Source of the DNA: Vermamoeba vermiformis | Taxonomy: Eukaryota | Reading direction: 5' to 3' | DNA length: 64,000 bases | Assembly (NCBI GenBank): GCA_045837725.1 | Contig: JBEWZL010000084.1 | Coordinates: 310,001-374,000, forward strand | Shown: piece by piece, positions 2,957-62,201 of the stretch | How positions within the stretch are numbered: position 1 is the stretch's first letter | How the letters are laid out: each line of letters begins with the position of its first letter | The notes under the pieces: model-generated | Seen by the model: the letters and a program-made list of their open reading frames with translations, nothing else | What the model was told of the DNA's origin: nothing | Databases searched by the model: none | Position numbers and translations under genes: made by a program

Positions 2957-3908
2957 TTAAATCTCGTCGTTGTTATCTTGCACGTGTTGGTCGTACAAAT
3001 CGTACTGCACGTTCAAAAACTCCAAGTAATTTCTCGACATTGCTCCGGGTAATCTCGGATGTTTTTGCACGGCACTTACAACGCATTTTTTAATACTAAG
3101 ACCGCCTAATTCTGGCGGCAAGACTTGAATAGAAGTGCCACCAAGGTTAATCGTGGTGAGAAATTTGAGTTGGATCAGATCCGTTGGAATAATCTTGATT
3201 AAGGTATGACCTAATTCCAGCTTTTCCAAATTAGTCAATCGACCTATTTCTGGCGGAATTTCGCGAATTTTGTTCGAAGAAATCGTTATGGACTCGAGGC
3301 TCGTTAATTTCATCAATACTTTGGGAAATTTTGTGAACTTGCAATCCGCCAAGTTAATTTGCTTCAAATTCGTTAATAACGACATTTGTTCGGGCAAATC
3401 TGTCAACGAATTGCTATGCAAATAGATGCTGATTAAATTGGTCATTTTTGAAATTTCAGGCGGGATGTGCTGGATGTAGTTGTGTCCCAAATTCAACCAG
3501 TAGACAGAATCTAGGTCAAATATTTCAGGTGGTACTTGACTAAGCCAATTGGATGATAGAGCTAATCGTTCAACGTGAGTCAAGGTGCCGATCGAGGGTG
3601 GGATTGACTTGAGTCCAAGCCCATTCAAATCAAATGAAGTATCTTGATTTTTCTTGCAAAATTCGATTCTAGATTGAGGGACTCTGCTCTATAATCAACA
3701 TTAATAATTAAATTAATTGAAATTGAAAAGTTTTGGATTTGAAGACTAAAGCCCAGGCTTTAATCTTGGAATATTAAGCACGATAAACGATGCAAAATAA
3801 CAACAATAGTATATTTAATTTAACATCGCAAAGAAGATTTTAAGAGCTTGTAGATTTGATTCCTTCGTAAATCACCAATAAAATAACTATTAGTAATCTA
3901 CTTACCAT
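2957..3908 (-). CDS. Small leucine-rich repeat protein (about 8 LRRs)
   Basis: Exon 1 is ATG only (3906-3908, followed by gtaag). Exon 2 is 2957-3688. Repeats of LxxLxLxxNxLxxIPxEIxxL. Confidence 0.9.
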
Positions 3909-18179: not shown

Positions 18180-20827
<2,648 letters not shown>

Positions 20828-24651: not shown

Positions 24652-26080
24652 ATGGAGCAAATTAATCCGAAAGGGTTAGTAAATAAAATATACTGGTAAA
24701 TATAAAATTATCTTATTGTTGAATGGCTACACAGGAACTTGTTTAAAGCTTTACCCGTGGATGTGACTAAAATTATTATTGAAATGCTCGAAGCTGAAGA
24801 TTTTGCCCGTTGGTACGAAATATTAGTATATGATATTTTATATTAATAATAATCATAACAGTACACGAGTTGATACTCACTGGAATCGTGATCTGGTATT
24901 TTTATTGGATGAGGTTCACCTGAGCACCAGCCTTTTAAGACACCTTAATTATTATCTTGATAACATCAAGAAATTCAATTGCAGAAGAATCGAGTTTTCT
25001 TTCTCTCATATCATACTCCAGAAGAGGTAGGTTGCCGCGGATTCTTCGCCAAGCGCAAAACCTTTATTAAACTAATCGTATTGTTTAGCTTGTACCCATT
25101 GGTCATACAACTTCCAAAATTAACGGAGCTTACTCTCAATGAACCTGAAGGTCTCAATCCAAGTTCATTACAAATGTTCTCGACCAACAAGCAGATCAAA
25201 AAGCTCCACTACGATCACTTGCTCGCTGACCAAAGACTACTTAATTACTTAGCTGAATATACTCAACTTGTTGAACTTGATTTATTCGTCGACGTTCAAT
25301 TGGTAGCTCAAGTTTGGGAGGTTTTGCTTGGCATGCCGAAATTACGAAAGCTCAGCATAAAAGCACGAGGACCAAACCCAAGTTTCACGGTCAATTGGAA
25401 CGCTATATCTTCGCTAGAATCGCTCAAGTTGGTCAATATGACATTCAGGCCTTTCGATACAGTTGAAGGTTGCAACATTAGCGTAATGACTAATCTGACG
25501 CATTTAGCCATCCATGGACCTTATTCTGGCACTATATTTGCACCATTATTGGCAAATCATACTCAATTGCGAGAATTGGTTGCGGACGCTTTGAGCAGAG
25601 ATATGTTGGCCTCACCAATGCTACAGCACGTGACTTCATTGAAGTGCAATAGAGCTCTAAGAATCGATGAAACCGTGCCGAAATTACCTAATTTGGTATC
25701 GCTGGCTTGGCGTAAGAACATACGATTGTCACCCTATAGACAAGACTAACAGTTACTATTTTATAGGACCGAGCACACCAGGTGAAATAGATTTTATTTC
25801 GCGCCACTCGAACCTCACGTACCTCGAAATGCGAGGAACTAATTACGAGAATATCGACAAGCTGCTCAAACTAACAAAGTTGAAATATCTTGTGATACGC
25901 ACGCAGATGACTAAGGAGATTGCTAGCGTTATCACTAAGTTGCCCAATTTGGCGGCCATAGATACCTTATTACCCCAGAATATTAAGAGTGTTGACGATT
26001 ATAAGAAAAACTTCCATCGTACTTTCAACCTGCCAGATCATCTTTTGGCCCTGTGGACACATTGGAGCAACAACAATTAG
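24652..26080 (+). CDS. F-box / degenerate LRR protein
   Basis: LFKALPVDVTKIIIEMLEAEDFARCTRVDTHWN (F-box-like) followed by LPKLTELTL, MPKLRKLSI, LPNLVSL, LTKLKYLVI repeats. Confidence 0.8.
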
Positions 26081-26428: not shown

Positions 26429-29400
26429 ATGAGTTCAGCACACGAAGCAAAACAAGAAAAGGAGAAGCAAGAATTCCATGAGAGGCTTCTTTTCTTGCTA
26501 AAACACGGTGATTTAAAAGGTGCTGCCGATCATTTAAATGAAAATCGACGTTTCGAAAGTAAGTCTACCAGATGCGTTAAATTAAAAATCGGAGTAATTT
26601 AAATAATCTCGTAAAAATTAACTAACATGTTCATTAGTTACTTCTGAGGATTATCTTCCTGACCAAGCTTATGACAAGTTGAGTCCTGTTGAAATTGCAA
26701 TTAAATTTGGCGATTACGACTTATATGATGCGTGCAACCGCTTTGGAGGATATCAAACCCTTAAAAATAATAGGGGATTGTAAGTAAATACTGGAATTTA
26801 AATTATTTCAGATAATCTTAACGGATTTCGTCTAGTTCAATCGAGTACTGGGCATTGCTTCATAACTTCAAATTGCCATCTCCTCTCCCAAGAACATATC
26901 ATCACGGTTACAAAAATATAAGTTATCAAGGCACAAGTTTTGATGACTTATATTTAGCCTGCTCCAACGGACATCTGCACGTAAGAGTCAAATTATATTA
27001 TTATAGGTAATTTATTATTGAACGTAAATTAGGTCTTGGATAAGCTCGTTAAGAATAGTAAAAAATCTCACGATATGGAGTTCACAACCAGCAAAAGAAA
27101 TCTGTATGAAATCGCTGCTTTATTCAACCGCGCTGAAATTCTTAAAGCTTTGATCGAGATGAGCATTTTGAAAGCTAATCAAGTATGTGCAAATCATAGT
27201 AATATCATAATAACGAACTAATTCGTTCTTGCGGTGAAGTCGATCTGGACTCACAGATGTGACATGGGAAATGTTTTGCATATTGCCGCTCGATTGGGGC
27301 ACGTGACAATTGCCAAAGTTGTTATTGACCTCTTGGAGCCTACATCAGAGTTCTTAGAGGAGCGTGATGAGTTCGAGCACACTGCCATGAGCCTTGCCGT
27401 GCAGCATCTACACGCACCTGTTGTCGAAGTGTTGGCTAGGGCTGGTGCGACTATGAAAGGGTAATAATAAGATTTTTAGATAGTGCCCGGCAGCCTTACT
27501 AATTGATATTAATAGGGAGTTTGGATATAAAAAGGAATCGTTGTTCGATATCATCTTTTCGAGGTACGTGGACTTGTCAAAATATCTTTGTTTTTTTTGC
27601 TAACGGTTCATATAGCGATGTTGAAATGAGACAGGAGTACCTGGTTAAGGACAAGACTGTACGCGATAGAATTATTTTGCTATTGGCTCAACACAACCCC
27701 GAGGCACTGGAGACACTGTCCAAAGAGCGACTTGCGTACATTGAAGACGTCAAACAACGACAAGCTAATCACAATAGTACGTATATATCACCTTCCGTAG
27801 TATATGGGATCGTATTAATACATTTCCGTAGTCTCTCAAGATGTAGACGAAGAGATGAATGTTGACGAGGACACCGTACTTCCGCTTGGTCCTGAGGACG
27901 ACGATGAGGAAGTAGTACAAAAAATTGAAGCACAGTCTTCTCCTAGCGGCAAAAAGAAGCTTCCAGAGTGCACTTTGTGCGATAAAAAGTTCACGTCGGA
28001 GATCAGGTATGAGTATTTTATCATCGCCGACGGGCCTAATCTTTGCGATTATTTTAGTTTGCAGGCTCATTTGAAGTCCAAGGGACACGTCAAACAAGAA
28101 AAGAAAGATAGACTGCAAAAGAAGTTTGAAGTCGTCACGCCAGAAAAGACCGTGAAAAAACAACAAGAAATGATTGGTCTGATTGAACGATTGCCGTTAT
28201 TGAGCGAGTTGATCAACTTGATTATTATCAAATTGGACAAATGGAGTTTATTGAAATTCAGCGCAACGTCAAAAAGCATTCAAATGCTCGTGGAAAAACG
28301 AAATTTCGTTTGGAGGAGTGTCCAATTATGGATGACATCTCAATTATGGGAAAAAACCAAAGGAAAAATCTTCGAACCTGTCAAACGTGTCATGCCAATG
28401 GTCGAAAAGATTCGATACCGTTCAACGAATTCATCATGGGACCTCAAAGACGAATATCTCAGCACTATTTTTGACATTCCCAAGTACTGCCCGAATTTAC
28501 GCGAATTGGACGTTAGAGACATTAATCCAGCAATCCCCGTGTCATTCTTGAGTGCCCTGTTTCAGCACTGCCCGAAGCTCAGAGTGCTCAAGTTGGCTGA
28601 CGTCTTGGTATGGAAATCATCCAAGAAGGAGGCCGTAGCAAAAGGCGAACTAGACGCGCCTGAAGAGGAACAGCCCGAGCCCGCTGTCAACCCGAAAAAA
28701 CCGTGGAAGAAAAAGAAAGTTAAAAAGACTAAGAGACCGGATCCAAAAGCGTGGGCAGTCAGAGTTGACGAAGTATTGCAAAACACTTCCACGTCATTAG
28801 AAGAACTCACTTTGTTGATGCCGTTCCCTGACAACTTGCCACCTGACAGCTACGCAAAGATCATCGTCGGAATTTTGAAAAAATGTCCGAACCTCGTTCA
28901 ACTCCGATTAGAAGCGACGAATGTGGACAATGTGCAATCTTCTACGATGAAATTTATTGCCGATGCTGTTTTGGAGTCATTGCCAAAGTTGAAAAAATTG
29001 AAATTGATGGGCGAATGGTTGTTCGGAAGATTGCCCGCGACTGAATACAACGAGCTATTTCTCAAGTTCAATAAGCTCGAGAAATTGCAATTGGAAGGCT
29101 CGGAGATTGCAAATTTTGATCGAGACATTCACGACGCTCTCGGCGAGGCCACGCATTTGAAAGAACTTGTCATCTGTCACAACGGCGAGATTAACATTGA
29201 CGGACCTCGCATTGGTCTCTCGAACTTGACCAATCTTACCAAATTAGGATTTTATGCTTGGACTGCTCCGAGCACTGATAACTGTAAGTTCCATCAAAAA
29301 AAAATTACGCTGCGAAGTCAAGGAAATTTCACGATCTTTAATGTTACCTAATAAGGAAATAATGCTCTAATTCTGTTTTTTAGGGGATCTATTATTGCAC

Positions 29401-30762
29401 ACAATTACCGCACGTTGCACAAAGATTCAACATTTGGAGACAGCAATTGCATGGAATGAACGGTTAGGCCAGGGCTTGACGCCTATTGCACCAAAACTTA
29501 AAGTATTCAAACGTACGTTCATATTATTATGTATAAATATATTCGTTCAATAATATTTTCTGTTCTCAGAAAAATATTGGCACCCTGCCGTGGAAAATCC
29601 ACCGTACTCAATGTTAGTCAAGTGCGCCAATTTGACTCTAATCCACGCTGAAAAAGTACGTCTAAGTATAACTACTACAATATCGTATACTAACAGAGGT
29701 TATCTGATTTAGGTCTCCTTGAGTGATTTCCATACAATTATTGATCACTGCAAATTCTTGGAAACTATTCACATTAATATTGTTCCGGCTACTGTTGAAG
29801 AGAATCCAGATGACAATAATAACAATAATGCGGCTAATAATAACAATAATGATAATGCCGCTCAACCAGCCGACGGTGCAAATGCTAACAATAATAATGA
29901 AAATAATAATAATAATGATGAAAATCAAAATCAAGCGAATAATAATGAAAATAATCCGGTACAAAATAACGGCGCAAATGAAAATAATAATGAAGCCAAT
30001 AATAATAATGATAATGCAGCTGCTCCAGAGAATAATAATGATAATGCAAATAACAACAATAATAATAATGCTCCTATTGTCGCACCAGCTGCCCCTGCGT
30101 GGAATGTGATTGACATGGGCCGATTGTTTGAAAAATGCAGACACTTGAAGAACTTGCATTTGATTGGCCCTATCAACAACAAAAGCTTTACGTATGAAAA
30201 ACTCTTATGCTTCATTTGCAGATCGATTTGCAAATTACTAACAATATTTTATTTCCTTTTTAGGAATTTCGTTGTTTCTACGTCGTTAAAGTACTTGAAT
30301 CAATTGTCCACGGAGACTCGTGCTGTGTCAGATATGGTTATGTTTTATTTAGCCGAGTGCTGTCCTAACTTGAAGTTCTGCGAATTGGATTACGAGTTCT
30401 TGGTTTCTGAATGTAAGTCATTTTAGATGTGGCCACATCCGCTCAAAAACGACATTACTTTAGATTTTTTTTGCATTTATCCATATGATAATACGATTAT
30501 ATAATATTATTATGAATTATTTTTCGTCAGTAATTACGAATATTATGGCGATTTTTTTGAATTTTTTTCTAACCAACGGATCCACTTGATTTTTGTTTGG
30601 CTGGTGATTAACTCTAATGTTATTAAACTAGGGATCGAATTACCATTGACGAGAAGATTGCCACACTTGACTCGCTTTGAAATGAGAAACTCTTACACCA
30701 TTGACCAAGCCTTCACTAATGCGAACAAAGAACGAGCCGCGAAGATTAAATACAACTTGTAA
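26429..30762 (+). CDS. Ankyrin - C2H2 zinc finger - F-box - LRR protein with Asn-rich insertion
   Basis: Ankyrins (NVLHIAARLGH, HTAMSLAVQ..LARAGA); CTLCDKKFTSEISLQAHLKSKGH after removing a small intron; F-box-like IERLPLLSELINLIIIKLDKWSLLKFSATSK; LRRs CPNLRELDV, CPKLRVLKL, CPNLVQLRL. Stop at 30760-30762. Confidence 0.85.
29810..30070 (+). repeat. Imperfect (AAT)n trinucleotide tract encoding an Asn-rich low-complexity loop
   Basis: Repeated AATAATAAT units giving NNNNNAANNNNNDN... within an exon. Confidence 0.9.
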
Positions 30763-52409: not shown

Positions 52410-54994
52410 ATGGAAGGCATCATTAATTACACAAAGTCCGTAATTATCGAAGCAGAGACGTTAGTCAAGCAAAAAGAAGACGGAAACGCGGTGGATCTTG
52501 CAGAATACCAACAAACGCTTCAAAAAATCGATATAATTTTATTCGAGAGCGTACATACGGCAATATTCAATAATCTACCGTAAGTTATTGTTTTCTTATT
52601 GAGATCTGATTTTTAAAAATTAATCATTTAGCGAAGAAATTGTTATTCGGGTCTTACAATTGTACAATCGTGCGCGACAATTATCATGGAAAAAATTAAC
52701 TTCGAAATTACGAGGTTTAGCGGTATTAGCTGGCAGAGGTAAGTCACTGTTGTGCAGATCTGGAATTATTATTTTACTAATATTTATTTTTTGAAGACCA
52801 AAGGCATGAATTGATCGAGCAAATAATAGAAGCACTATTAAATGATAGAGTATTGAACGAAGAGCTCATGTTTAAGATTTTAATTACCGCGCCAAACTTT
52901 GGTAAGAGAATCTAGTTTATTATTAATAAAACTAATATTAATTGGATTTAATATAGACATTGTTAAATGGATTAAAACAGAAGGAAATTTAACTCGCTTA
53001 GTAAATTATTTGAAGCAGTTTAAAATTACTGGCATTGCCCTCGAGATCCTGCACTTTGTCATGACCAGACCAGGTCCGATAGCCATCTCTTAATCATATC
53101 TCCATATTAATCTGATTATAGGTCTCATTGAGGTCATCGGAAGTGAATTTACGGTCCCAATACTTGAAATGTATTTCCGGCTCACGAAGCACAAAGAGCC
53201 ACGTTTCACACTTTCAATTTGGCGCTCATTTAATCAGCCACCGTACCCGTATTTTCAGCAGATTAAACAATTAGATACTGATGGTAAGGTCTTATATATA
53301 GTTCGACTTAAATAGTATTTACTAACGAGATTTCGTCGGTGTAGTTAAATTGGAGTGGATCACGTTCCTCGTTCAACATTATGATGTACAAACTTTCGAA
53401 GAAAATTATTTGGAATTATTCAAGGCTCTTGCTTCTAGGTAATTCGTTAAATACATAATTATTTCGATTAATCCTAACATACTTGCATAAATCAAATTCG
53501 TTCCGTAATGAAGATCTTAATTATCTCTGTCGTATTTATTATGAGTATGGTACTAATAAAAATATTATAAATAGTGTGGATGTGTCGTTGTTACCACGAG
53601 CATTCATGCCCGGTTGTTCGTTGAACGAACATTTCTTCATCAAAATTATGCGCGATAAGCAAAAGAAGACGTTTGATTTCTTGATGCAAATTGTAAGTTA
53701 TCGATTTTATTAAGGATTATTAATTATTATTCTATTATTAAGCCATATTGATATGACGAACTTAATTAGGGATACAATTTTGCTACGTTCAAAATGACCG
53801 AAGGACGAGCGTTACTCACTGCCATTCAATTACGGAATAGTCATTTCGTGAAAGAGATCCTAAAAAGGAAATTACTCAATTTGGACAAAATCGAGTTATC
53901 GAGAGACTTAAGTCTGATGGATCTGGTTCACATGCAAGATCTGCATATTTATCAATTGATACACAACAGCGGCGTTGATTTTCACAAAAAAGCGTTGATC
54001 CCTTCATACTTCCATTGTAAAGTCAATTATCCGTTCGTGAACGCGTTGATGGACTGGCACCTGTCAAAACGTCAAACAAAAGTACTGTCGCTCAAACGAC
54101 TGTGCATCATTGAAGTCAAAGCCAACAACATTAGTGATGAACGACTGCCCCATGACTTGCGCGATGCTATTGATGGTACGTAAAAAATTTACTGTTGGCG
54201 GTATTGCAAATTACGTAATTATTTTCTTTTACCTTATTTGGAAAATTGGAAAAGAATTCGAACTTCGATCAAAGCAACACTTGAAATTATGTTATAAAGA
54301 ATTCGAAATCGCTCTTAGCTTTAATTTCATTAAATATAGTCTTTCGAGTTTTTACGAATACCAGGTCGCTTTAAATTACTTCTGGATCGGACTAATTACA
54401 AAATTATAACGTTCATAAAGAATATAAGTGGTAGTAATAGTAATTAAAAAAATAATGGATTGTTATAGAATACAAAGAGCCGTGGTATTGGTTGAATTGG
54501 AACGACGATGAAGATGAGAAAAATTACTGGAAAGAATGGCTGCAATATTTACGCGAGACAGCACGAACAGTTGAAAAGAACATTGCAGACTATACATTGA
54601 AGACTATTCACGACGACTATTTAACATTGCGCATGGACGTTACGCGGCAGGGATCTTTCCCTGACCCGTGGATTACTTTCCCTGAAGGTTATCGAAATCT
54701 CCCGAAAAAACTCGATCGAAACGTACGTTTTTAATTATTACGTACATTATTTAATTTATTTTTGTGTAGAATGCCAAACCCTTGGCGGAATGTCTCGGTT
54801 TCAGTTTGCAATCGATTAGTGTATTTTGTTGCTTGGTAGCATTAGTGACGATCAAAGTCAGCTCGCCCGATCAGTTTGTGCCTCCAGATCAGCATTTTTC
54901 GACCATTTACAAAGTTAGTCCTGCTGCCCTCGACACACACAAACCGAATTGGTATGCAAGGTTTCTGCGTGCAATGACCAGCGAAAAATTGTAA
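52410..54994 (+). CDS. Tandem paralogue B of the 49543-52184 gene
   Basis: Same exon pattern and homologous peptides (VDLAEYQQTL, LPRAF, HFFIKIMRD, LSLKRLCIIEVKANN, WYWLNW). Confidence 0.75.
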
Positions 54995-55177
54995 TTAATA
55001 ATAAAGCGCGAGATCTCGGAGGGTATCCGCGATAAAACCGTAGAAGATTCTGTCCGCGGTCATTGTGTGTCGTCATTTTCGAAATACTGCACCCCAACTG
55101 ATGTACATAATATTTAAAAGGGTTGTCAGTATCTAATTTATAATATTTATTTATTCGAGCCGTATCATAATAAGCAG

Positions 55178-58047
55178 ATGGAAGAGAATAAAAGTTTGGA
55201 TTTGGTTTCGGTCGTCAAGACAAGTAAGAAAAACGGCATAAAATATTATTATTTACATATATATTAATAATAATACTTATTAGAAGCGTAATTTTTTGAT
55301 GACACGTGTCGTTCGATCTACATTAATTTTTGAACTGTCCAGTTCCTTTTCCGAAAATACAGTATTCTGATAAAACATGTCATTTATATCTATAAATTTG
55401 TATTAATATATTTAATTTAATTAAAGGGAATGCCGGGCAATTGGACAATTTTTTGCAATCCGCAAGCTCGGCTGAGGCGGCTACTTCCTCTCAAGTTGCA
55501 GAAGCCATTAGATGGTGCTGTAAAAATGCGTGGTACGAAGGAGCATTGACTTTACTGCGCGCAAATGTATATAAGAAGCCTGTTGATGAATTGATCGGAT
55601 CCAAATCTGAAGATGGCAGAAGTCTGTTCCATTTAATTGCCATTGGGCAGACCAAAAGTGAACTGGATAAGCTATTTAATGAACTACTAATAGATATTTA
55701 TGCACGAGGCGAAGACATAAATCAAAGAGATTCTAACGGATCTACAGCACTCATGAAAGCCATTGAATTGCATCACGTGCCACTCGCAAAATATCTATTA
55801 TCGTTAGAAAATATTAAGCTAGATCTCACTGATATGAAACGGCTTAATGTCCTTGATAAGATAATTTTGGCGAATAACGAAACCATCGCTGAAGATCTGG
55901 TCAAAACTCACAAAGAATACAACACCAAAGAATATCAATTGAATTGGATCAAGTACCAATCGCATGTAGTCGGCTTTATGGCTTCCATATTTGGTAACAT
56001 TAACGAAGAAAAGCTGGACACGTTTTTCATGAACGCCATCCACAATGGCCTCGAGAAGCAAGTCAATTTTTTCCTCGACAAAAAAATCAATGTTTCAGCC
56101 GTTGATCCACGTGACGGAAAGCACATCTTTTGCATTGCAGCTAGTGCGGGATATTTCACCCTGTGCAAGACTCTCATGAAGAAGACAACGATCATTATGC
56201 CGCGTACTGAATGGACCCACGTGATTGCTTGGAACTCGTTGAAGACCGAACCTGTCGACTCAAAGCACGAGGCTGAATTTGTCAAACTATTCAAGGGCCT
56301 CATCAAAAACAAAGGTACGTGACTCGTAAAGTGAAACTATGACACGTGTCAAAAGATTTCAGCAATTTCCTTTCTTGGTATATATATCCGTGGATCACAT
56401 TGTAGTGATCCTTAATAATACTCGCGAAGGTACTAAATTTTTAACGCATGATAGATGTGAACATTGCCAACCGCTTGAATGGTGAGACTCTGCTGCACGA
56501 AGCAAGTTTCCGAGGCAATGTGACAGCCATCAAAATTCTGATGAAAGCCGGTGCCAATCCAATGGCCGTGACTGCACGTGGTGAAACTGCACTACATTAC
56601 CTCACGCGGTGCAACAAAGTGGCTCGACACGGTGAAATCACGAAGCTGCTGTTCGAACCACTAGTCGGAGATCAACGCCAGATTGTGTTGCAGTCACGTG
56701 GTCCTGAAGGCACCGTGGAACAAGTGGCACGCAAATACAACTTGGTCGACATGCTCATGGCTATCAATCAGATCCGCGGATTCATCGGCGACGATCTCTT
56801 TTGGTCAGTTCTATGGCTATTAATTCCCACTATGACACGTGATCAAGTCATATCTTTGACATATGTCAACAAGCGTCTCCGAGCTGTTTGTTCCCACGAA
56901 ATTTTTTGGGCGGGAAGAGATCCGGCTGCTACGTGCAACAGTCTGTTACCAGAATACGACGACTGGTGCGAAGAATTGTTGCCTAACCCACGTGACCAAA
57001 TGATATTAGCTCGTTATTATAGACAGCGCGCACGAGGAGAATATTTCAAGTTATTACTCAGCAAGACCAACCACGGCCAGTTCAATGACCGCCGATCCGA
57101 TCAAATTGTTCCTGGAATGACTTTAGCGCAACTATCAAGCTCGCAGAAACCATCGATGGAATATGCATATTTATTCGACGAAGCTAATAATCCGTTGTTG
57201 ATCGGATTCAAGCCATCCGAGGCCAAGAAAAAATCACCTGCCAAGTTATTATCTGGATTAATGAAGAAAATGAGCTTTAAAAATATCAAAAGCGGAAGCG
57301 ACAAGCTGAAAGCAAGCCAAGAAATCAAAGCCAAGGCAGATGCGAACGATGACGACGATCTAGTCAAAGATTTTGAAGCCAAAGGCCAACATATCTTCAA
57401 AGTACTATTATTGGGCGATATTGGTGTCGGAAAGACCTCCGTACTACTCAGATTCATCGAAAATCGTTACAACGTACCGGATTCGGAGCTTGAAACGATT
57501 TTGGCGGGAGATTTCGTCGAGACCGCTGTTTGCCTGCAACAAAAACTGATTAGAATGCAAATAGTAAGTAATTTTATTATATTATATACGTTATTAATAC
57601 ATTATTATTGTATAGTGGGACACGGTGCACTTACAAAAATTAAGGTAAAAATTTTGAACCGTTGGATCTCCATTACAAATTTTTTAATATTCGTTCAATT
57701 ATTACAGAAATGCATGCAACCCTCACCGAAATGCAGACATAGCCATTATTCACTTCGATATTACGAACAAAGCGACCTTCGAGCGGTTACCGGATTGGGC
57801 TTCGTGGGTCAGCAGAGATTGCTCCAGTAATACGCGCATCTTAGTTATTGGATGCAAAGCAGACTCTCCTAAACGAAAAGTAACGACTGAAGAAGCAAAA
57901 GCCAAATCCGCTGAAATTGGAGCTTCGTACATTGAAACTTCAGCGTTGTTAGATCAGAACTGTGACTTGGCTTATTGGCTCGTGGCTAACCAAACGTTGC
58001 AATATATTCATGCTGGTGTTCAATTAAATATGACCAGTATGCACTAG
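55178..58047 (+). CDS. Ankyrin repeats - F-box-like - Rab-like (probably degenerate) small GTPase fusion
   Basis: Ankyrins GSTALMKA, GETLLHEA, GETALHY; F-box-like IGDDLFWSVLWLL..VISLTYVNKRLRAVCSHEIFW; GTPase FKVLLLGDIGVGKTS, QI|WDTVHLQ, VIGCKAD, YIETSA. Stop at 58045-58047. Confidence 0.88.
56340..56351. promoter_or_regulatory. Palindrome TGACACGTGTCA, intronic copy 3
   Basis: Exact match inside intron 2 of the ANK-F-box-Rab gene. Confidence 0.5.
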
Positions 58048-58159
58048 AGTTAATTTTGATAAAATAAAAAACTCGTTACAAAAATTTATATTTTTATTAT
58101 TTCGTCTAGTTTACAAGATAAGACATAACCAACCGCCGGAATGATATATAATATCATAA

Positions 58160-58979
58160 TTAAATGCGGTAATTGCTAATCTTAAGCCAAGCTTGGAAGT
58201 TTTCGTTCAGATCCATTTTCACCATACTTACAGCTCCGTCGAATAAATCTCTAGTCCAATCTCCTGCCGCTGCCTTGTTGGTAATAATATCAAGAAGCAT
58301 ATCGTCAACGGAGATTTGCTTTTCTGCGCCCGATTTGACGTACTTATTGAAAGTCATCGATCCGAGTTCTGCAATCTGAGCTGGCGGCAAATTATTATCG
58401 ACGCGCCAGTGGTAAGCGTTAACACTACTGTAAAATTCTAACGTTTCTTCTAAATGCTTTGCTGCAAGGTAATTAAAGAAGGCCATGTAAAGTTCGTTAT
58501 CTTTCGTCACATCTTCCAGCACTGGTATCCTTTTGTTTGACATACGACCCAACTGAGGTGAAGACTGTGCCTATAATTATATAAGTTAATACTTGCTGCT
58601 TGAATAAGCTAGGTGAGCTGAATTTTTAACCGGGATTCAGAGCATAAAATTCAATTACGCTTCAAAAATTCTAATTTCGATTTAATACTGCTCCAAAAAT
58701 CATTTTGAATAATATTCGCTGCTACCAAATGAGTTACGTAATTTTGCAAATTAAAATAACGGTTATTTAAATTAAGCGGATTTGGTATTCGCTTACCTGC
58801 AGATTACTAGATGAAACAACTCTATTTATGGAAGGGCTTGATACTTGAGTCGATAATCTTGGTTGAGAAGCGACACGTTGAGCAGCAGCAGGCCGTACAC
58901 CTTCTAATCTGTCAAGACTTTCTTCAATACGTTGAAGAACCATGTCCAAATTATTTAAAATTGCGTCCTCGGTGGTCAT
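58160..58979 (-). CDS. Small RGS-domain protein
   Basis: AFFNYLAAKHLEETLEFYSSV..TFNKYVKSGAEKQISVD..DLFD is an RGS box. Two exons, short coiled N-terminus. Confidence 0.88.
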
Positions 58980-59439: not shown

Positions 59440-62201
59440 ATGAGAATCACAATTACAATAATTTACTGGATCGTCGTTGCAATTTACTTTACGGAGATCG
59501 CGAAGGTAATCAATTAATTTTCTACAAAATATTATTTTAATATTTACTATTTTTATCTGGTTAATAATTGATTCATTTTAGGGCCAAACGACAACTGAAA
59601 AATCATTGTCGTTTTATTATCCGCAAGTGCTTAACGACTGCTTTGCCTGCACTAACTTCCCCAACATTGGTCTGCCTCCAGTAAGTATTTTCTAATATTT
59701 TTGTAATTTATAAGATACCGATTTTTAAAGGTTAACGGCCAAATCTGTAATCGTTATCGGATAAATTGAAAATTAATGCAATATCATGTATACTAATAGT
59801 AATATAATATTAATAATTATCTCCTTTATGTAACAGTGGAATAAACATCAAGCTCGTCAAGGCGAAGTACTTGCATCCGTTCAAATGCCCAACATGACTC
59901 AAGGCGAGCGTCTAATATCGCAATCATATTGCTGTCGATATACATTCGGCACTAATGCTCAAGTTGACTTTACGAATATTATTCGCGTGGATGTGACTGT
60001 TGCTCGGCAGGCTTTTTACGGTACGTTGCTTTAAATACAATCCATTATTCTTCGATACCAAAAGTATTTTTGATATCAATATATTAATATGGTTATAGTG
60101 GTCAACACAATAGGAGCATTCGACAACTGGTTGTGGTTCGGCATCTACGACAAAACAGATCAACAAATGATTTACGGCCAGTGGCAACGAAATGAAAGTC
60201 AGATTGGCGCTGCTAAGATCGCTATGCAATATGAAGAAGAGTATGAACTATACTAAGCTATATTTAGCGTACATTGTCCGCTACAAAATTATAGCCCAAA
60301 ATTCTGCGAATTTAATTTTGAATTTCTAAGTTTTACATTGTTCTAACGATCGCGTAGGTCTCGAAGAGCGTTCAATTACTCCATTCCAAACTGGCAGAAC
60401 ATGGGCTCAGTCATCTTGGGTTATCAAATCGTCAGCGAAGAACCCAACGCCTACGTCGAACTTATTAACGGTTCTATTACAGTAGTTTACTCGACTGATG
60501 GTAATTATTAACAAATACATATATATTATTATTGATAATTAATATTGACTCTCTTTGTAGCAATTGTTCTATCGGACGACACAAAAATTCTGATCGGCGT
60601 ATTAGTTGGCGTCGGTGTTCCAGTGGCAGGCACAGCAATATTTCTAGGAATATTTTTCGGAGTTAAGCAGAAGAAGAGCGCTAAAGAGAAGAAGAGGCTC
60701 GAAACAGAGAAAAAAGACTTGGAAAAACAACTCAAATACAGCGAATTACCCGACGTACTTAATCCAAATAAGGCAACACCTTATAAGGCAATCGAATTCC
60801 ATAGTAACGGGCAATATTATCAATACTACGATAAAAACCGATTTTTAACACTTTCCAAATTAGGAAACGAGGACGAGGATGTCGGATTAAATTTAAATTT
60901 GCAGCCCAAGCCGACACTACCAGAAGATCTTAATAGCAGATTTAATATACCTTTCAAAGACTTAAAATTCAAGCGCGAGATTGGCGCGGGAGGCTTCGGC
61001 AAAGTGTTTGTCGGTGAATGGCAAAGTACAGAAGTCGCGATTAAAGTGAGCAATGCTATTGCTTCCTTTGAAGAGTTTCAGAAAGAAGCGCAGTTGATGA
61101 TGTAAGTATATTAGTATAGTAATAATATCATTATAGCGGCCAATATTTTTTTTTCGGATCTCGAGATCCAACCGCGAAGTCCACTTTCAGCCAATTTCTT
61201 TGCCCTACTTAATACTAAATATCAATTCCTTGATGGTGAGATTTAATGTAATTGAGGGCCACTATCATACTACAATACTTTGAAGGCCCATATTCATTAT
61301 GAATAGGAGCGGCAATATCGAAATTCATAACGACAGCACGATTTTTTTGCTGCAGACCCGAAAGACTAACTAACGTTTTTCTAGTAATATTCGTCCGCAC
61401 CCTAATGTACTTCAAGTGCTCGGAGTCAGCACGGACGGATTTGCACCAATGATCGTGATGGACTTTTGTGCGGGTGGCAGTTTGGATGCGGTGCTGTTCA
61501 ACAAGACGAAAGATATTAGCGCACAAGCACAGTTCAAATTGATTATTGGCATCGCTCGAGGATTACTTCACTTGCATAAGAATAATATCGTCCATCGAGA
61601 CCTTGCCGCAAGAAACGTTTTGGTATACTTTTTGATGATCGCGTGGCGTATACTTTTTGCATCCTAATCTTCATTTGCAGTTGACGAGCGATGGTGAGCC
61701 TAAAATATCTGACTTTGGCATGTCGAGAATTGTTGAAGCTTCAGTGAAAGAAGGAACAACTAAGACTACTATAGGACCTGTCAAATGGATGGTACGCACA
61801 TTTGACGAGATCCGGATGTCACAAACTTCAAATACGTTTATTAAATTTATTGTTTGTAGTCACCTGAATCAATTAGAGATCGCATTTACAGCACAAAATC
61901 AGATGTTTGGAGCTTTGGCATTGTGCTCAGTGAAATCGCAAACAGATCTGAGCCACACGCCGAGACTCAGAACGTGATCGATGTCGCAGTTCAGATTAGA
62001 GATCATAACAAAACACCTACTATAATCGATAGTGCACCTGAGTATGTCAAACAAATCACTGCGAAGTGTTGGGCTCAAAACCCTGAAGATCGACCGGTAA
62101 GTCTCAGATCCAGCCCCGAGCCAAGAAATTAACTACTTTTCTAGGAAATGGAAGAGATTTGCGAGATGTTAAATAAGTACAAAAAAGAGAACGGAATGTA
62201 G
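59440..62201 (+). CDS. Receptor protein kinase (TKL / tyrosine-kinase-like)
   Basis: Signal peptide, ectodomain, TM ILIGVLVGVGVPVAGTAIFLGIFFGV; kinase GAGGFGKV, VAIK, HRDLAARN, DFGMSR, GPVKWMSPE, SDVWSFG. Stop at 62199-62201. Confidence 0.93.

What the first reader, a model, noticed from the sequence alone, without database searches (positions are those of the whole stretch)
55178..58047. Ankyrin-F-box-pseudoRab fusion: candidate SCF adaptor with an integrated GTPase decoy
Seen: ankyrin repeats, an F-box-like segment (about 56778-56910) and a C-terminal Rab-like domain in one spliced frame. The P-loop (GDIGVGKTS) and G5 (ETSA) are intact, but G3 reads WDTVHLQ instead of WDTAGQE, G4 is GCKAD instead of GNKxD, and the protein ends TSMH with no prenylatable Cys. 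Known: the G3 Gly/Gln drive switch II movement and hydrolysis; GTPase-E3 adaptor fusions exist (RAB40-SOCS, RhoBTB); intracellular bacteria of amoebae such as Legionella target Rabs with effectors. Inference: a non-switching, non-membrane Rab could act as bait that delivers Rab-binding proteins (host regulators or pathogen effectors) to SCF, analogous to integrated decoys in plant NLRs.
Basis: partly seen in the sequence, partly recalled or inferred. Interest (0 to 1): 0.78.

Follow-up and report, generated by a model that had tools for sequence, protein, structure and literature searches.

The report
Ankyrin, F-box-like, Rab-like fusion gene
A real, spliced and conserved gene of a microbial eukaryote joins ankyrin repeats, a probable ubiquitin-ligase docking motif and a Rab-type GTPase domain that has lost its switch residues; comparable GTPase-ligase fusions are already known, so it is a new variant rather than a new kind.

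Summary
The gene is real. All four GT..AG introns, including both sides of the 29-nt micro-exon that encodes WDTVHLQ, are removed in contigs of a related run. Full-length 798-aa orthologues come from intron-less contigs. Pfam finds ankyrin repeats and a complete Ras-family domain, and the closest solved proteins are Rabs. The altered G3 (DTVH) and G4 (CKxD) and the Cys-free end are kept in orthologues of 85-90% identity. Selection is strongly purifying: dN/dS is 0.07 overall and 0.06 in the Rab part. Against the closest relative there are 32 synonymous and 4 non-synonymous differences. Decay is therefore excluded.

The F-box is not proven. It has no Pfam or PDB sequence match, and both AlphaFold models were unusable. 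Only protein-language-model features point to F-box families.

The best reading is a cullin-RING substrate receptor of the ankyrin/F-box type with a tethered, non-switching Rab-like module. The 'integrated decoy' idea is untested, and the divergent switch II argues against it. Precedents are TbFRP, Naegleria F-box-GTPases, Rab40, RhoBTB and Legionella chimeras, so this is a new variant of a known kind.

The parts
55178..55223 (+). Exon 1: ATG plus 15 codons and 1 nt
   Evidence: Sequence. The joint 55223>55427 is in an X5 contig. The start MEE.. is also present in L001.
55427..56314 (+). Exon 2: N-terminal ankyrin-repeat region
   Evidence: Pfam Ank_2 at 1.8e-12 on P0001. The joint 56314>56455 is GT..AG.
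56455..57563 (+). Exon 3: last ankyrin repeats, F-box-like segment, conserved helical region, Lys-rich linker, and the Rab-like P-loop through beta3
   Evidence: Translation P0002. Pfam gives Ank at 8.4e-7 and Ras profile 1-52.
56778..56909 (+). F-box-like core (aa 420-463, FIGDDLFW...HEIFW); membership not proven
   Evidence: 45 of 46 residues (aa 427-472) are invariant in three orthologues. The language-model lead points to F-box families. There is no Pfam or PDB match.
56931..57200 (+). Conserved region of unknown family after the F-box-like segment (aa 471-560)
   Evidence: 78 of 90 positions are invariant, with invariant runs at aa 485-513 and 542-564. dN/dS is 0.041. No Pfam family matches.
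57201..57395 (+). Lys-rich linker (aa 561-625), the least conserved part; holds the conserved polybasic stretch at 57225-57281
   Evidence: 43 of 65 positions are invariant, with 15 K+R and 10 D+E. The aa identity to L001 is 69%. The motif is kept in P0154, P0004 and P0169.
57396..58044 (+). Rab-like GTPase domain (aa 626-803), interrupted by introns 3 and 4
   Evidence: Pfam Ras at 3.2e-29 on P0154. Of the 60 best PDB hits, 59 carry Rab or Sec4 names, with best E 9.5e-26. dN/dS is 0.062.
57414..57440 (+). G1 P-loop, GDIGVGKTS
   Evidence: The fourth residue varies (G, C or N) among orthologues, while GK[T] is kept.
57616..57644 (+). 29-nt micro-exon 4, which encodes the altered G3 (WDTVHLQKL)
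   Evidence: Both joints are in X5 contig record 6. The same exon in L001 and L002 has 5 synonymous and 1 non-synonymous difference. P0154 reads WDTVHLEKL.
57708..58047 (+). Exon 5: rest of the Rab-like domain, with G4 GCKAD at 57850-57864, G5 ETSA at 57934-57945 and stop TAG at 58045-58047
   Evidence: Translation P0003. Pfam Ras profile 70-160 at 2.6e-17.

Best explanation
The gene encodes an 803-aa multidomain protein that most likely works as a substrate receptor of a cullin-RING (SCF-type) ubiquitin ligase. About nine ankyrin-like repeats lie directly before a divergent F-box-like three-helix motif. This is the arrangement of the poxvirus and Orientia ankyrin/F-box adaptors, so the repeats would hold the substrate. 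A conserved helical region and a flexible Lys-rich linker then tether a Rab-derived domain.

That domain keeps the phosphate- and base-binding residues: GxxxxGKT, the Asp of G3, the Lys and Asp of G4, and the Ser-Ala of G5. It lacks the DxxG glycine, the catalytic Gln, the Asn of NKxD and any prenylation Cys. It would therefore be a nucleotide-holding but non-switching, non-hydrolysing interaction module. Its invariant switch I/interswitch face and C-terminal helix would bind a fixed partner, either to place or regulate the ligase or to bring a second client.

Shown here: the gene model, the domains, the motif states, their conservation and purifying selection. Inferred: nucleotide binding without hydrolysis, Skp1/cullin engagement, and which module holds the substrate.
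For: The gene is real and spliced. All four joints appear in X5 contigs. Four full-length 798-aa orthologues lie on intron-less contigs of 2.5-9.5 kb, while exon-sized ORFs of the same cluster lie on contigs of up to 589 kb.

Domains: Pfam ankyrin families and Ras family at 102 bits against a cut-off of 21.6. The best PDB hits are Sec4, Rab1A, Rab11A and Rab8A, at E 1e-25 to 1e-22.

The degenerate motifs are conserved. G3 is WDTVHL[QE], G4 is GCK[AS]D, and the end is MT[SN]MH in the window, P0154 and L001/L002.

Selection. Against X5, 32 of 36 listed differences are synonymous. Against L001, dN/dS is 0.071 overall, 0.093 for the ankyrin part, 0.016 for the F-box-like part, 0.041 for the post-F-box part and 0.062 for the Rab-like part.

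The longest invariant runs are the Rab P-loop-to-beta3 stretch (43 aa), the F-box-like core (28+17 aa), two post-F-box stretches and the C-terminal helix plus tail (26 aa).

F-box lead: for the 61-aa segment the best named Atlas cluster scores 0.90 and is an F-box cluster, and all 8 rows shown are F-box sets or carry an F-box name. For a wider segment, ranks 3 and 11 are F-box.

Precedents. TbFRP is FYVE - F-box - Rab-related GTPase without CaaX (PMC3593210, section 3.1 and passages). Rab40 is a Rab with a SOCS box that binds Cullin5 (abstracts in the listing). Ankyrin/F-box adaptors occur in poxviruses and Orientia (abstracts in the listing).
Against: No F-box, F-box-like, PRANC or SOCS-box Pfam model matches P0002 or P0154 at E<=1, or the 68-aa segment of 4 orthologues at E<=10. 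In one search the only hit, in 4 of 4 members, is Dopey_N at E 0.002-0.003 and 17 bits, below its 26.4-bit cut-off. No F-box chain of the PDB matches by phmmer or by profile at E<=10.

The Leu-Pro that usually opens an F-box (recalled) is Ile-Gly here. Both AlphaFold models were low-confidence (mean pLDDT 43.0 and 38.6), so there is no fold evidence. The tool rates the Atlas scores as a lead: 4-10% of shuffled proteins reach 0.9. No Skp1 was available, so binding is untested.

A hydrophobic residue in place of the catalytic Gln does not by itself exclude hydrolysis (HAS-GTPases; abstract of bioRxiv 10.1101/2020.08.16.253419 in the listing). dS against L001 is near saturation, so those ratios are approximate.
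Confidence: 0.5

Rival explanations
1. There is no ubiquitin-ligase link. The 'F-box-like' stretch is only a conserved helical cap or spacer, so the protein is an ankyrin scaffold that carries a static Rab-like binding module.
For: All HMM tests for F-box were negative. The only sub-threshold Pfam hit on the segment is to a helical-repeat family, Dopey_N, in 4 of 4 orthologues. The opening Leu-Pro is absent. hhalign found nothing in common with the F-box-looking motif of the neighbouring LRR gene (probability 0.09).
Against: Language-model features put the segment with F-box families only. It is the most constrained part of the protein, with 59 of 65 positions invariant and dN/dS 0.016. Its position directly after the ankyrin repeats and before a GTPase matches known adaptor architectures (PMC3593210; listing). 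Pfam also missed the neighbouring gene's F-box-looking motif next to LRRs, so Pfam may be insensitive in this lineage.
Confidence: 0.3
2. The non-switching Rab acts as bait that delivers Rab-binding host regulators or pathogen effectors to the ligase.
For: The domain is Rab-derived, has no prenylation Cys, and lacks the G3 Gly and the catalytic Gln. It may be fused to an E3-adaptor motif. Intracellular bacteria of protists do exploit Rab, ankyrin and F-box modules (bioRxiv 10.1101/350777, section read).
Against: Switch II shares only 6 of 19 aligned positions with Rab1A, so it does not copy the surface that Rab partners recognise. The domain evolves slowly under purifying selection (dN/dS 0.062), and switch I/interswitch is 44 of 45 invariant, with no sign of an arms race. 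No relative was found in viral contigs or prokaryote genomes. No infection data exist.
Confidence: 0.08
3. The GTPase is the working end and still cycles by a non-canonical mechanism. The F-box mainly makes the protein itself short-lived, as was proposed for TbFRP, and the ankyrin repeats localise it.
For: The TbFRP authors link its F-box to rapid turnover (PMC3593210 discussion passages). The P-loop, the K and D of G4 and the SA of G5 are kept. GTPases with a hydrophobic residue at the catalytic position can hydrolyse (abstract).
Against: The DxxG glycine that senses the gamma-phosphate is His in every orthologue. The Asn of NKxD is Cys. The P-loop position equivalent to Ras G13 varies freely (G, C or N), which fits relaxed catalytic constraint.
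Confidence: 0.1
4. It is a decaying or mis-joined gene: the Rab part is a separate or dying gene.
For: None beyond the degenerate motifs.
Against: One contig links exon 3, the micro-exon and exon 5. There are full-length 798-aa ORFs in relatives. dN/dS is 0.06-0.07, and the count against X5 is 32 synonymous to 4 non-synonymous. No alternative W-DxxG[QELTH] coding stretch exists in any frame of 55001-58300.
Confidence: 0.01

Closest known systems
TbFRP of Trypanosoma brucei and other Euglenozoa (FYVE - F-box - Rab-related GTPase; PMC3593210, section 3.1 and passages read)
   Same: The module order is the same: a targeting or binding domain, then a central F-box, then a C-terminal Rab-derived GTPase. 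There is no CaaX or prenylation motif. The family is restricted to one lineage.
   Different: TbFRP has a FYVE domain where this protein has ankyrin repeats; no FYVE hit was found here. I did not read the state of TbFRP's G motifs. Sequence homology of the F-box and GTPase parts could not be tested, because no TbFRP sequence was available in the tools.
Naegleria F-box-GTPase fusions (Rab-like, Rho/Rac, Ran, G-alpha). Earlier notes of this scan attribute them to the supplement of Herman et al. 2021, PMC8296547.
   Same: An F-box-like head is fused to an often catalytically altered small GTPase. One noted form has a repeat domain (Kelch) before the F-box, which parallels ankyrin - F-box - Rab.
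   Different: None of the notes reports ankyrin repeats, and several forms keep a CaaX box. No sequence look-alike of this gene exists in the scan's index. In the main text of PMC8296547, 'F-box' occurs only in reference 68. The supplement was closed, so I could not see the description itself.
Rab40 (Rab + SOCS box, Cullin5 adaptor) and RhoBTB (atypical Rho + BTB, Cullin3 adaptor)
   Same: A small GTPase domain sits in one chain with a cullin-adaptor box. This is stated for Rab40 in the abstracts listed. For RhoBTB it rests on recall, plus the title of reference 79 seen.
   Different: The box type and order differ: in those proteins the GTPase comes first. Rab40 is a prenylated, cycling Rab (recalled). 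No SOCS-box or BTB Pfam hit was found here.
Ankyrin/F-box (PRANC) adaptors of poxviruses and Orientia; ASB ankyrin-SOCS proteins
   Same: Ankyrin repeats lie immediately N-terminal to the cullin-adaptor box and serve as the substrate-binding part (abstracts in the listing).
   Different: In those proteins the box ends the chain and no GTPase follows. They are viral, bacterial or animal proteins. No PRANC hit was found here.
Legionella-genus Rab-like effectors that carry ankyrin, F-box or U-box modules (bioRxiv 10.1101/350777, section read)
   Same: The same three module types are combined in single proteins. The authors infer that the Rab domains were acquired mainly from protozoa.
   Different: Those proteins are bacterial, secreted and intron-less. 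No relative of this gene was found in 185,579 prokaryote species genomes. Their exact architectures are in a figure that I could not see.

Membership tests
F-box (Pfam PF00646 / PF12937) | Match to a family HMM at or above the curated cut-off | tested here: not met
   There is no F-box model at E<=1 on P0002 or P0154, and none at E<=10 on the 68-aa segment of 4 orthologues.
F-box (Pfam PF00646 / PF12937) | Opening Leu-Pro dipeptide of helix 1 (motif recalled) | tested here: not met
   The corresponding residues are Ile-Gly (aa 420-421) in all orthologues.
F-box (Pfam PF00646 / PF12937) | Three-helix unit of roughly 45 residues | tested here: inconclusive
   DSSP on both models shows three helices over the segment, but pLDDT is below 50 there. 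No fold search was run on such models.
F-box (Pfam PF00646 / PF12937) | Likeness to family members by an independent method | tested here: inconclusive
   In the ESM Atlas the best named cluster scores 0.90 and is an F-box cluster. All 8 rows shown are F-box sets or carry an F-box name. The tool rates this as a lead only.
F-box (Pfam PF00646 / PF12937) | Binding to Skp1 | not testable with these tools
   No Skp1 sequence could be obtained. No genome is held, and the loci are not in a held record.
Rab family of the Ras superfamily | Ras-family HMM match, with Rabs as the closest characterised relatives | tested here: met
   PF00071 scores 102 bits against a cut-off of 21.6, over profile 1-159 of 162. 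Of the 60 best PDB hits, 59 are named Rab or Sec4.
Rab family of the Ras superfamily | Intact G1-G5: GxxxxGK[ST], switch-I Thr, DxxGQ, NKxD, SAK | tested here: not met
   G1 is kept. G3 is DTVHL, G4 is CK[AS]D and G5 is [ST][SC]AL. The switch-I Thr is present but with one extra residue before DF.
Rab family of the Ras superfamily | C-terminal prenylatable cysteine(s) | tested here: not met
   The protein ends ...LNMT[SN]MH. The last Cys is 28 residues from the end.
Ankyrin-repeat proteins | Pfam Ank-family matches above the cut-off | tested here: met
   Ank_2 scores 81.3 bits against a cut-off of 27.3, in 3 stretches on P0154. Hits fall on both exon 2 and exon 3.
PseudoGTPase (catalytically inactive GTPase fold) | Loss of catalytic or switch residues that is conserved in orthologues | tested here: met
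   The G3 Gly and the Gln are absent in the window, P0154 and L001/L002, under dN/dS 0.062.
PseudoGTPase (catalytically inactive GTPase fold) | Measured lack of hydrolysis; nucleotide-binding class | not testable with these tools
   This needs a biochemical assay.
TbFRP family | N-terminal FYVE domain | tested here: not met
   There is no FYVE hit; ankyrin repeats take that place.
TbFRP family | Sequence homology of the F-box-GTPase part to TbFRP | not tested
Integrated decoy (bait that mimics a pathogen's target) | The bait keeps the target's recognised surface | tested here: not met
   Switch II has 6 of 19 aligned positions identical to Rab1A (alignment).

The most novel reading that the evidence does not exclude
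The tethered, non-switching Rab-like domain is a bait. It captures proteins that recognise Rab GTPases (host GAPs, GEFs or effectors, or Rab-targeting proteins of intracellular microbes) and hands them to a cullin-RING ligase assembled on the adjacent F-box-like motif. That would be a protist analogue of integrated decoys in plant immune receptors.
Probability: 0.08. Interest if true: 0.85.

Novelty: new variant of a known kind. Interest (0 to 1): 0.42.

Why it matters
Small GTPase domains have been joined to cullin-RING adaptor boxes several times independently: Rab40, RhoBTB, TbFRP and the Naegleria fusions. This gene would add a further form, in which an ankyrin/F-box receptor of the type best known from poxviruses and Orientia carries a conserved, hydrolysis-incompetent Rab. 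It offers a clean case for asking what a pseudo-Rab does, because its switch I/interswitch face and C-terminal helix are nearly invariant while the catalytic positions are gone. It is also the kind of protist gene from which bacteria such as Legionella could have drawn their ankyrin/F-box/Rab chimeras. If the F-box fails the Skp1 test, the gene is simply a lineage-restricted ankyrin-pseudoRab scaffold.

Tried and rejected
- **Structure.** Both AlphaFold jobs gave unusable models: the 174-aa F-box region (6-row alignment) had mean pLDDT 43.0, and full-length P0154 (9 rows) had 38.6. No fold search was run.
- **Whole-library phmmer with exon 3.** Of the 150 proteins listed, 149 matched only through the ankyrin repeats (best stretch within query residues 1-115). 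One, P0004, was a true orthologue fragment.
- **Word-indexed searches.** These found only close orthologues: 1 of 1442 candidates in the longer set, 2 of 1028 in the near set, and for the Rab part 3 of 379. Those three were the protein itself plus two bivalve proteins at E 2.2e-5. A wider architecture family, if it exists, is beyond these tools.
- **F-box by sequence.** The following were negative or uninformative: Pfam, PDB phmmer and profile, hhalign against the neighbouring gene's F-box-looking motif (probability 0.09, Neff about 1), and a loose regex that matched only this segment.
- **Skp1 for a complex prediction.** No genome is held and the loci are not in held records.
- **Relatives elsewhere.** None was found in viral contigs (142 pattern matches, 0 confirmed) or in prokaryote genomes (54 matches, 0 confirmed). 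One search failed because alignment A5 had no conserved stretch.
- **RNA genes.** Rfam and tRNA scans of the window were empty.
- **Sequencing runs.** No listed holder is on record as RNA. The three RNA-seq runs of the species label gave only 9, 12 and 12 reads, mostly 95-99% alike, which is too few for joints.
- **Organism.** It was not identified.
- **SOCS-box reading.** I considered reading the conserved LLPNP...YY stretch as a SOCS box, from recall only. No Pfam support was found.
Full report
**1. Gene model**

Reading 54800-58400 gives five exons on the + strand: 55178-55223, 55427-56314, 56455-57563, 57616-57644 and 57708-58047. All introns are GT..AG, with lengths 203, 140, 52 and 63 nt. 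Joined, the exons make 2412 nt, which is 803 codons and one stop.

Reads and contigs of four runs were laid on 55000-58250. Contigs of run X5 show each of the four joints. X5 is a relative about 98% identical, and its label 'RNA?' is a guess. One 1078-nt contig runs from 56601 through 57563, the micro-exon and on to 57793.

The three RNA-seq runs that carry the same species label as the window gave only 9, 12 and 12 reads, mostly 95-99% alike. That shows low-level transcription at best and no joints.

Independent support comes from the protein collections. A cluster of 19 sequences about 90% identical holds four full-length 798-aa proteins on contigs of 2.5-9.5 kb. These contigs must be intron-less, because the gene caller does not splice. 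Exon-sized ORFs of 292, 346 and 374 aa from the same cluster lie on contigs of up to 589 kb.

Two metagenome contigs, L001 and L002, carry an orthologue of 85% protein identity with the same five-exon structure. The downstream sequence is also recognisably similar. No alternative coding stretch that would restore W-DxxG[Q...] exists in any frame of 55001-58300.

**2. Domains**

Pfam finds ankyrin families on exons 2 and 3, and the two halves of the Ras family on exon 3 (profile 1-52) and exon 5 (profile 70-160). On the unsplit orthologue P0154 the Ras family scores 102 bits (E 3.2e-29) over profile 1-159 of 162, and Ank_2 scores 81 bits in three stretches.

Against the PDB, 783 distinct chains match the GTPase part at E<=0.001. 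Of the best 60, 59 are named Rab or Sec4, headed by Sec4, Rab1A, Rab11A and Rab8A (E 9.5e-26 to about 4e-22). The domain is therefore Rab-derived.

**3. State of the GTPase motifs**

| Motif | Canonical | Here |
|---|---|---|
| G1 | GxxxxGK[ST] | GD[IV][GCN]VGKTS; the GxxxxGKT frame is kept but the fourth residue varies among close orthologues |
| Switch I | Thr before DF | Thr kept, with one extra residue before DF (alignment) |
| G3 | DxxGQ | DTVHL in the window, P0154 and L001/L002 |
| G4 | NKxD | CK[AS]D |
| G5 | SAK | [ST][SC]AL |

The protein ends ...LNMT[SN]MH, and the last Cys is 28 residues from the end.

From established knowledge of Ras-like GTPases (recalled), the G3 glycine senses the gamma-phosphate and the following Gln is catalytic. 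The expected result is a domain that may still hold a guanine nucleotide but cannot switch or hydrolyse in the canonical way. One caveat applies: GTPases with a hydrophobic residue at the catalytic position are known to hydrolyse by other means (abstract seen).

**4. Selection**

Against X5, 32 of the 36 listed differences are synonymous and 4 are not. The tool withheld one further difference, and X5 covers 25 of 30 bins.

Against L001, by the Nei-Gojobori method:

| Region | dN/dS |
|---|---|
| Whole protein | 0.071 |
| Ankyrin part | 0.093 |
| F-box-like part | 0.016 |
| Post-F-box region | 0.041 |
| Rab-like part | 0.062 |

dS is close to saturation, and it could not be computed for the linker, so these ratios are approximate.

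The micro-exon differs from L001 at 6 of 29 bases: 5 synonymous changes and one Gln/Glu change.

In a three-way comparison (window, P0154, L001), these are the longest invariant runs:
- the Rab stretch from the end of the P-loop to beta3 (43 aa);
- the F-box-like core (28 + 17 aa);
- two runs in the post-F-box region (29 and 23 aa);
- the C-terminal helix plus tail (26 aa).

The Lys-rich linker is the least conserved part (43 of 65 invariant). Simple decay is excluded. The altered switch regions are themselves among the most constrained parts.

**5. The F-box question**

By eye, aa 420-463 follow the hydrophobic pattern of an F-box, including a V-x-K-R-x motif and a closing Trp (recalled motifs). 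The opening Leu-Pro, however, is Ile-Gly.

No sequence method confirmed membership:
- No F-box, F-box-like, PRANC or SOCS-box Pfam model matched at E<=1.
- On the 68-aa segment of four orthologues at E<=10, the only hit was Dopey_N, at 17 bits against a 26.4-bit cut-off, in 4 of 4.
- No F-box chain in the PDB matched by phmmer or by profile.
- hhalign showed no likeness to the F-box-looking motif of the neighbouring LRR gene. Pfam missed that motif as well.
- Both AlphaFold models were of low confidence. They show three helices over the segment but carry no weight.

The one positive result is from protein-language-model features. For aa 410-470 of P0154 the best named cluster scores 0.90 and is an F-box cluster, and all 8 rows shown are F-box sets or carry an F-box name. 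For aa 425-600, ranks 3 and 11 are F-box. The tool states that 4-10% of shuffled proteins reach 0.9, so this is a lead.

I put the chance that this is a working F-box at roughly 0.6.

**6. Distribution**

The whole-library search with exon 3 was swamped by ankyrin proteins: 149 of the 150 listed. The three word-indexed searches returned only the close orthologue clusters P0154, P0004 and P0169, plus two weak bivalve GTPases. No relative was found in viral contigs or in prokaryote species genomes.

Within the reach of these tools, the family is confined to a few closely related organisms. The organism itself was not identified. The window holds ordinary eukaryotic genes, namely CDC5/Cef1, LRR proteins, an RGS gene and a kinase, and it holds no RNA genes.

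**7. Mechanism**

The ankyrin repeats run directly into the F-box-like motif. This matches the ankyrin/F-box adaptors of poxviruses and Orientia, where the repeats bind the substrate (abstracts). The Rab-like domain hangs on a poorly conserved, charged linker, which argues against its being the rigidly positioned substrate-binding domain of a classical F-box protein. Its invariant switch I/interswitch face and C-terminal helix point to one fixed partner.

I therefore favour a cullin-RING substrate receptor with a tethered, static Rab-like module for placement, regulation or a second client (confidence 0.5).

Rivals:
- No ligase link at all (0.3).
- A still-cycling GTPase whose F-box mainly controls its own turnover, as was proposed for TbFRP (0.1).
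- Decay (0.01).

Against the decoy, switch II shares only 6 of 19 aligned positions with Rab1A, and the domain shows no sign of rapid evolution.

**8. Comparison with what is known**

- **TbFRP.** FYVE - F-box - Rab18/Ypt6-like GTPase, ending VLLD without CaaX, restricted to Euglenozoa, and called a unique combination by its authors (PMC3593210).
- **Legionella genus.** Some Rab-like effectors also carry ankyrin, F-box or U-box modules (bioRxiv 10.1101/350777).
- **Rab40.** It binds Cullin5 through a SOCS box (abstracts).
- **Naegleria gruberi.** Earlier notes of this scan report many F-box-GTPase fusions, including a Kelch - F-box - Rho form. They attribute the description to the supplement of PMC8296547.
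- **This exact trio.** My searches for ankyrin - F-box - Rab in one eukaryotic protein found no description. These searches cover only the held library.

**9. Verdict**

The gene is real, conserved and transcribed, and its architecture is unusual. The pseudo-Rab observation is sound. The F-box is probable but unproven, and the decoy idea is speculative. It is a new variant of the known theme 'small GTPase fused to a cullin-RING adaptor'. Interest is 0.42.

Noticed in passing
window 57225-57281 (aa 569-587): Inside the otherwise least conserved linker, a polybasic-amphipathic stretch (KKKSPAKLLSGLMKKMSFK) keeps its pattern in P0154, P0004 and P0169. It could be a membrane-binding patch that replaces prenylation, a nuclear signal or a calmodulin site.
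   Followed up: partly
window 57414-57440; alignment A1: The fourth P-loop residue, equivalent to Ras G13 (recalled), is Gly, Cys or Asn in orthologues that are 83-90% identical, although the flanking residues are invariant.
   Followed up: partly
window 56742-56945: In all four orthologues the F-box-like segment gives a sub-threshold Pfam hit to Dopey_N (profile 157-203 of 306, E 0.002-0.003, 17 bits against a cut-off of 26.4). Chance or distant likeness was not resolved.
   Followed up: partly
window 27819-29351 (+), also 24964-25749 and 29713-30426: An ORF combines a C2H2-type zinc-finger hit, an F-box-looking motif (by eye) and weak LRR hits, with further LRR-like ORFs nearby. This may be a small group of F-box/LRR-type genes that Pfam's F-box models do not detect.
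   Followed up: partly
window 58160-58570 (-); L001 7650-7800: An RGS-domain gene (Pfam RGS, E 4.3e-9) lies tail-to-tail with the gene. Its end is recognisably conserved downstream of the orthologue in L001, so the neighbourhood is syntenic.
   Followed up: partly
window 29713-30426 (+): A long Asn-rich low-complexity tract (runs of N with D, E, A) lies inside an open frame.
   Followed up: no
window 18180-20339 (-), 2957-3688 (-), 60539-61105 (+): These are ordinary eukaryotic neighbours: a CDC5/Cef1 splicing factor (Myb_Cef, E 1.6e-52), an LRR protein (LRR_8, E 1.4e-22), and a membrane-span-plus-kinase start (PK_Tyr_Ser-Thr, E 2.8e-5).
   Followed up: no
window 55224-55435, run X23 (table 5c): Two RNA reads join exon 1 to exon 2 but carry seven different letters at the start of exon 2. 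Most RNA reads of the species label are only 95-99% alike. The sequenced RNA therefore seems to come from a different strain or a close paralogue.
   Followed up: no
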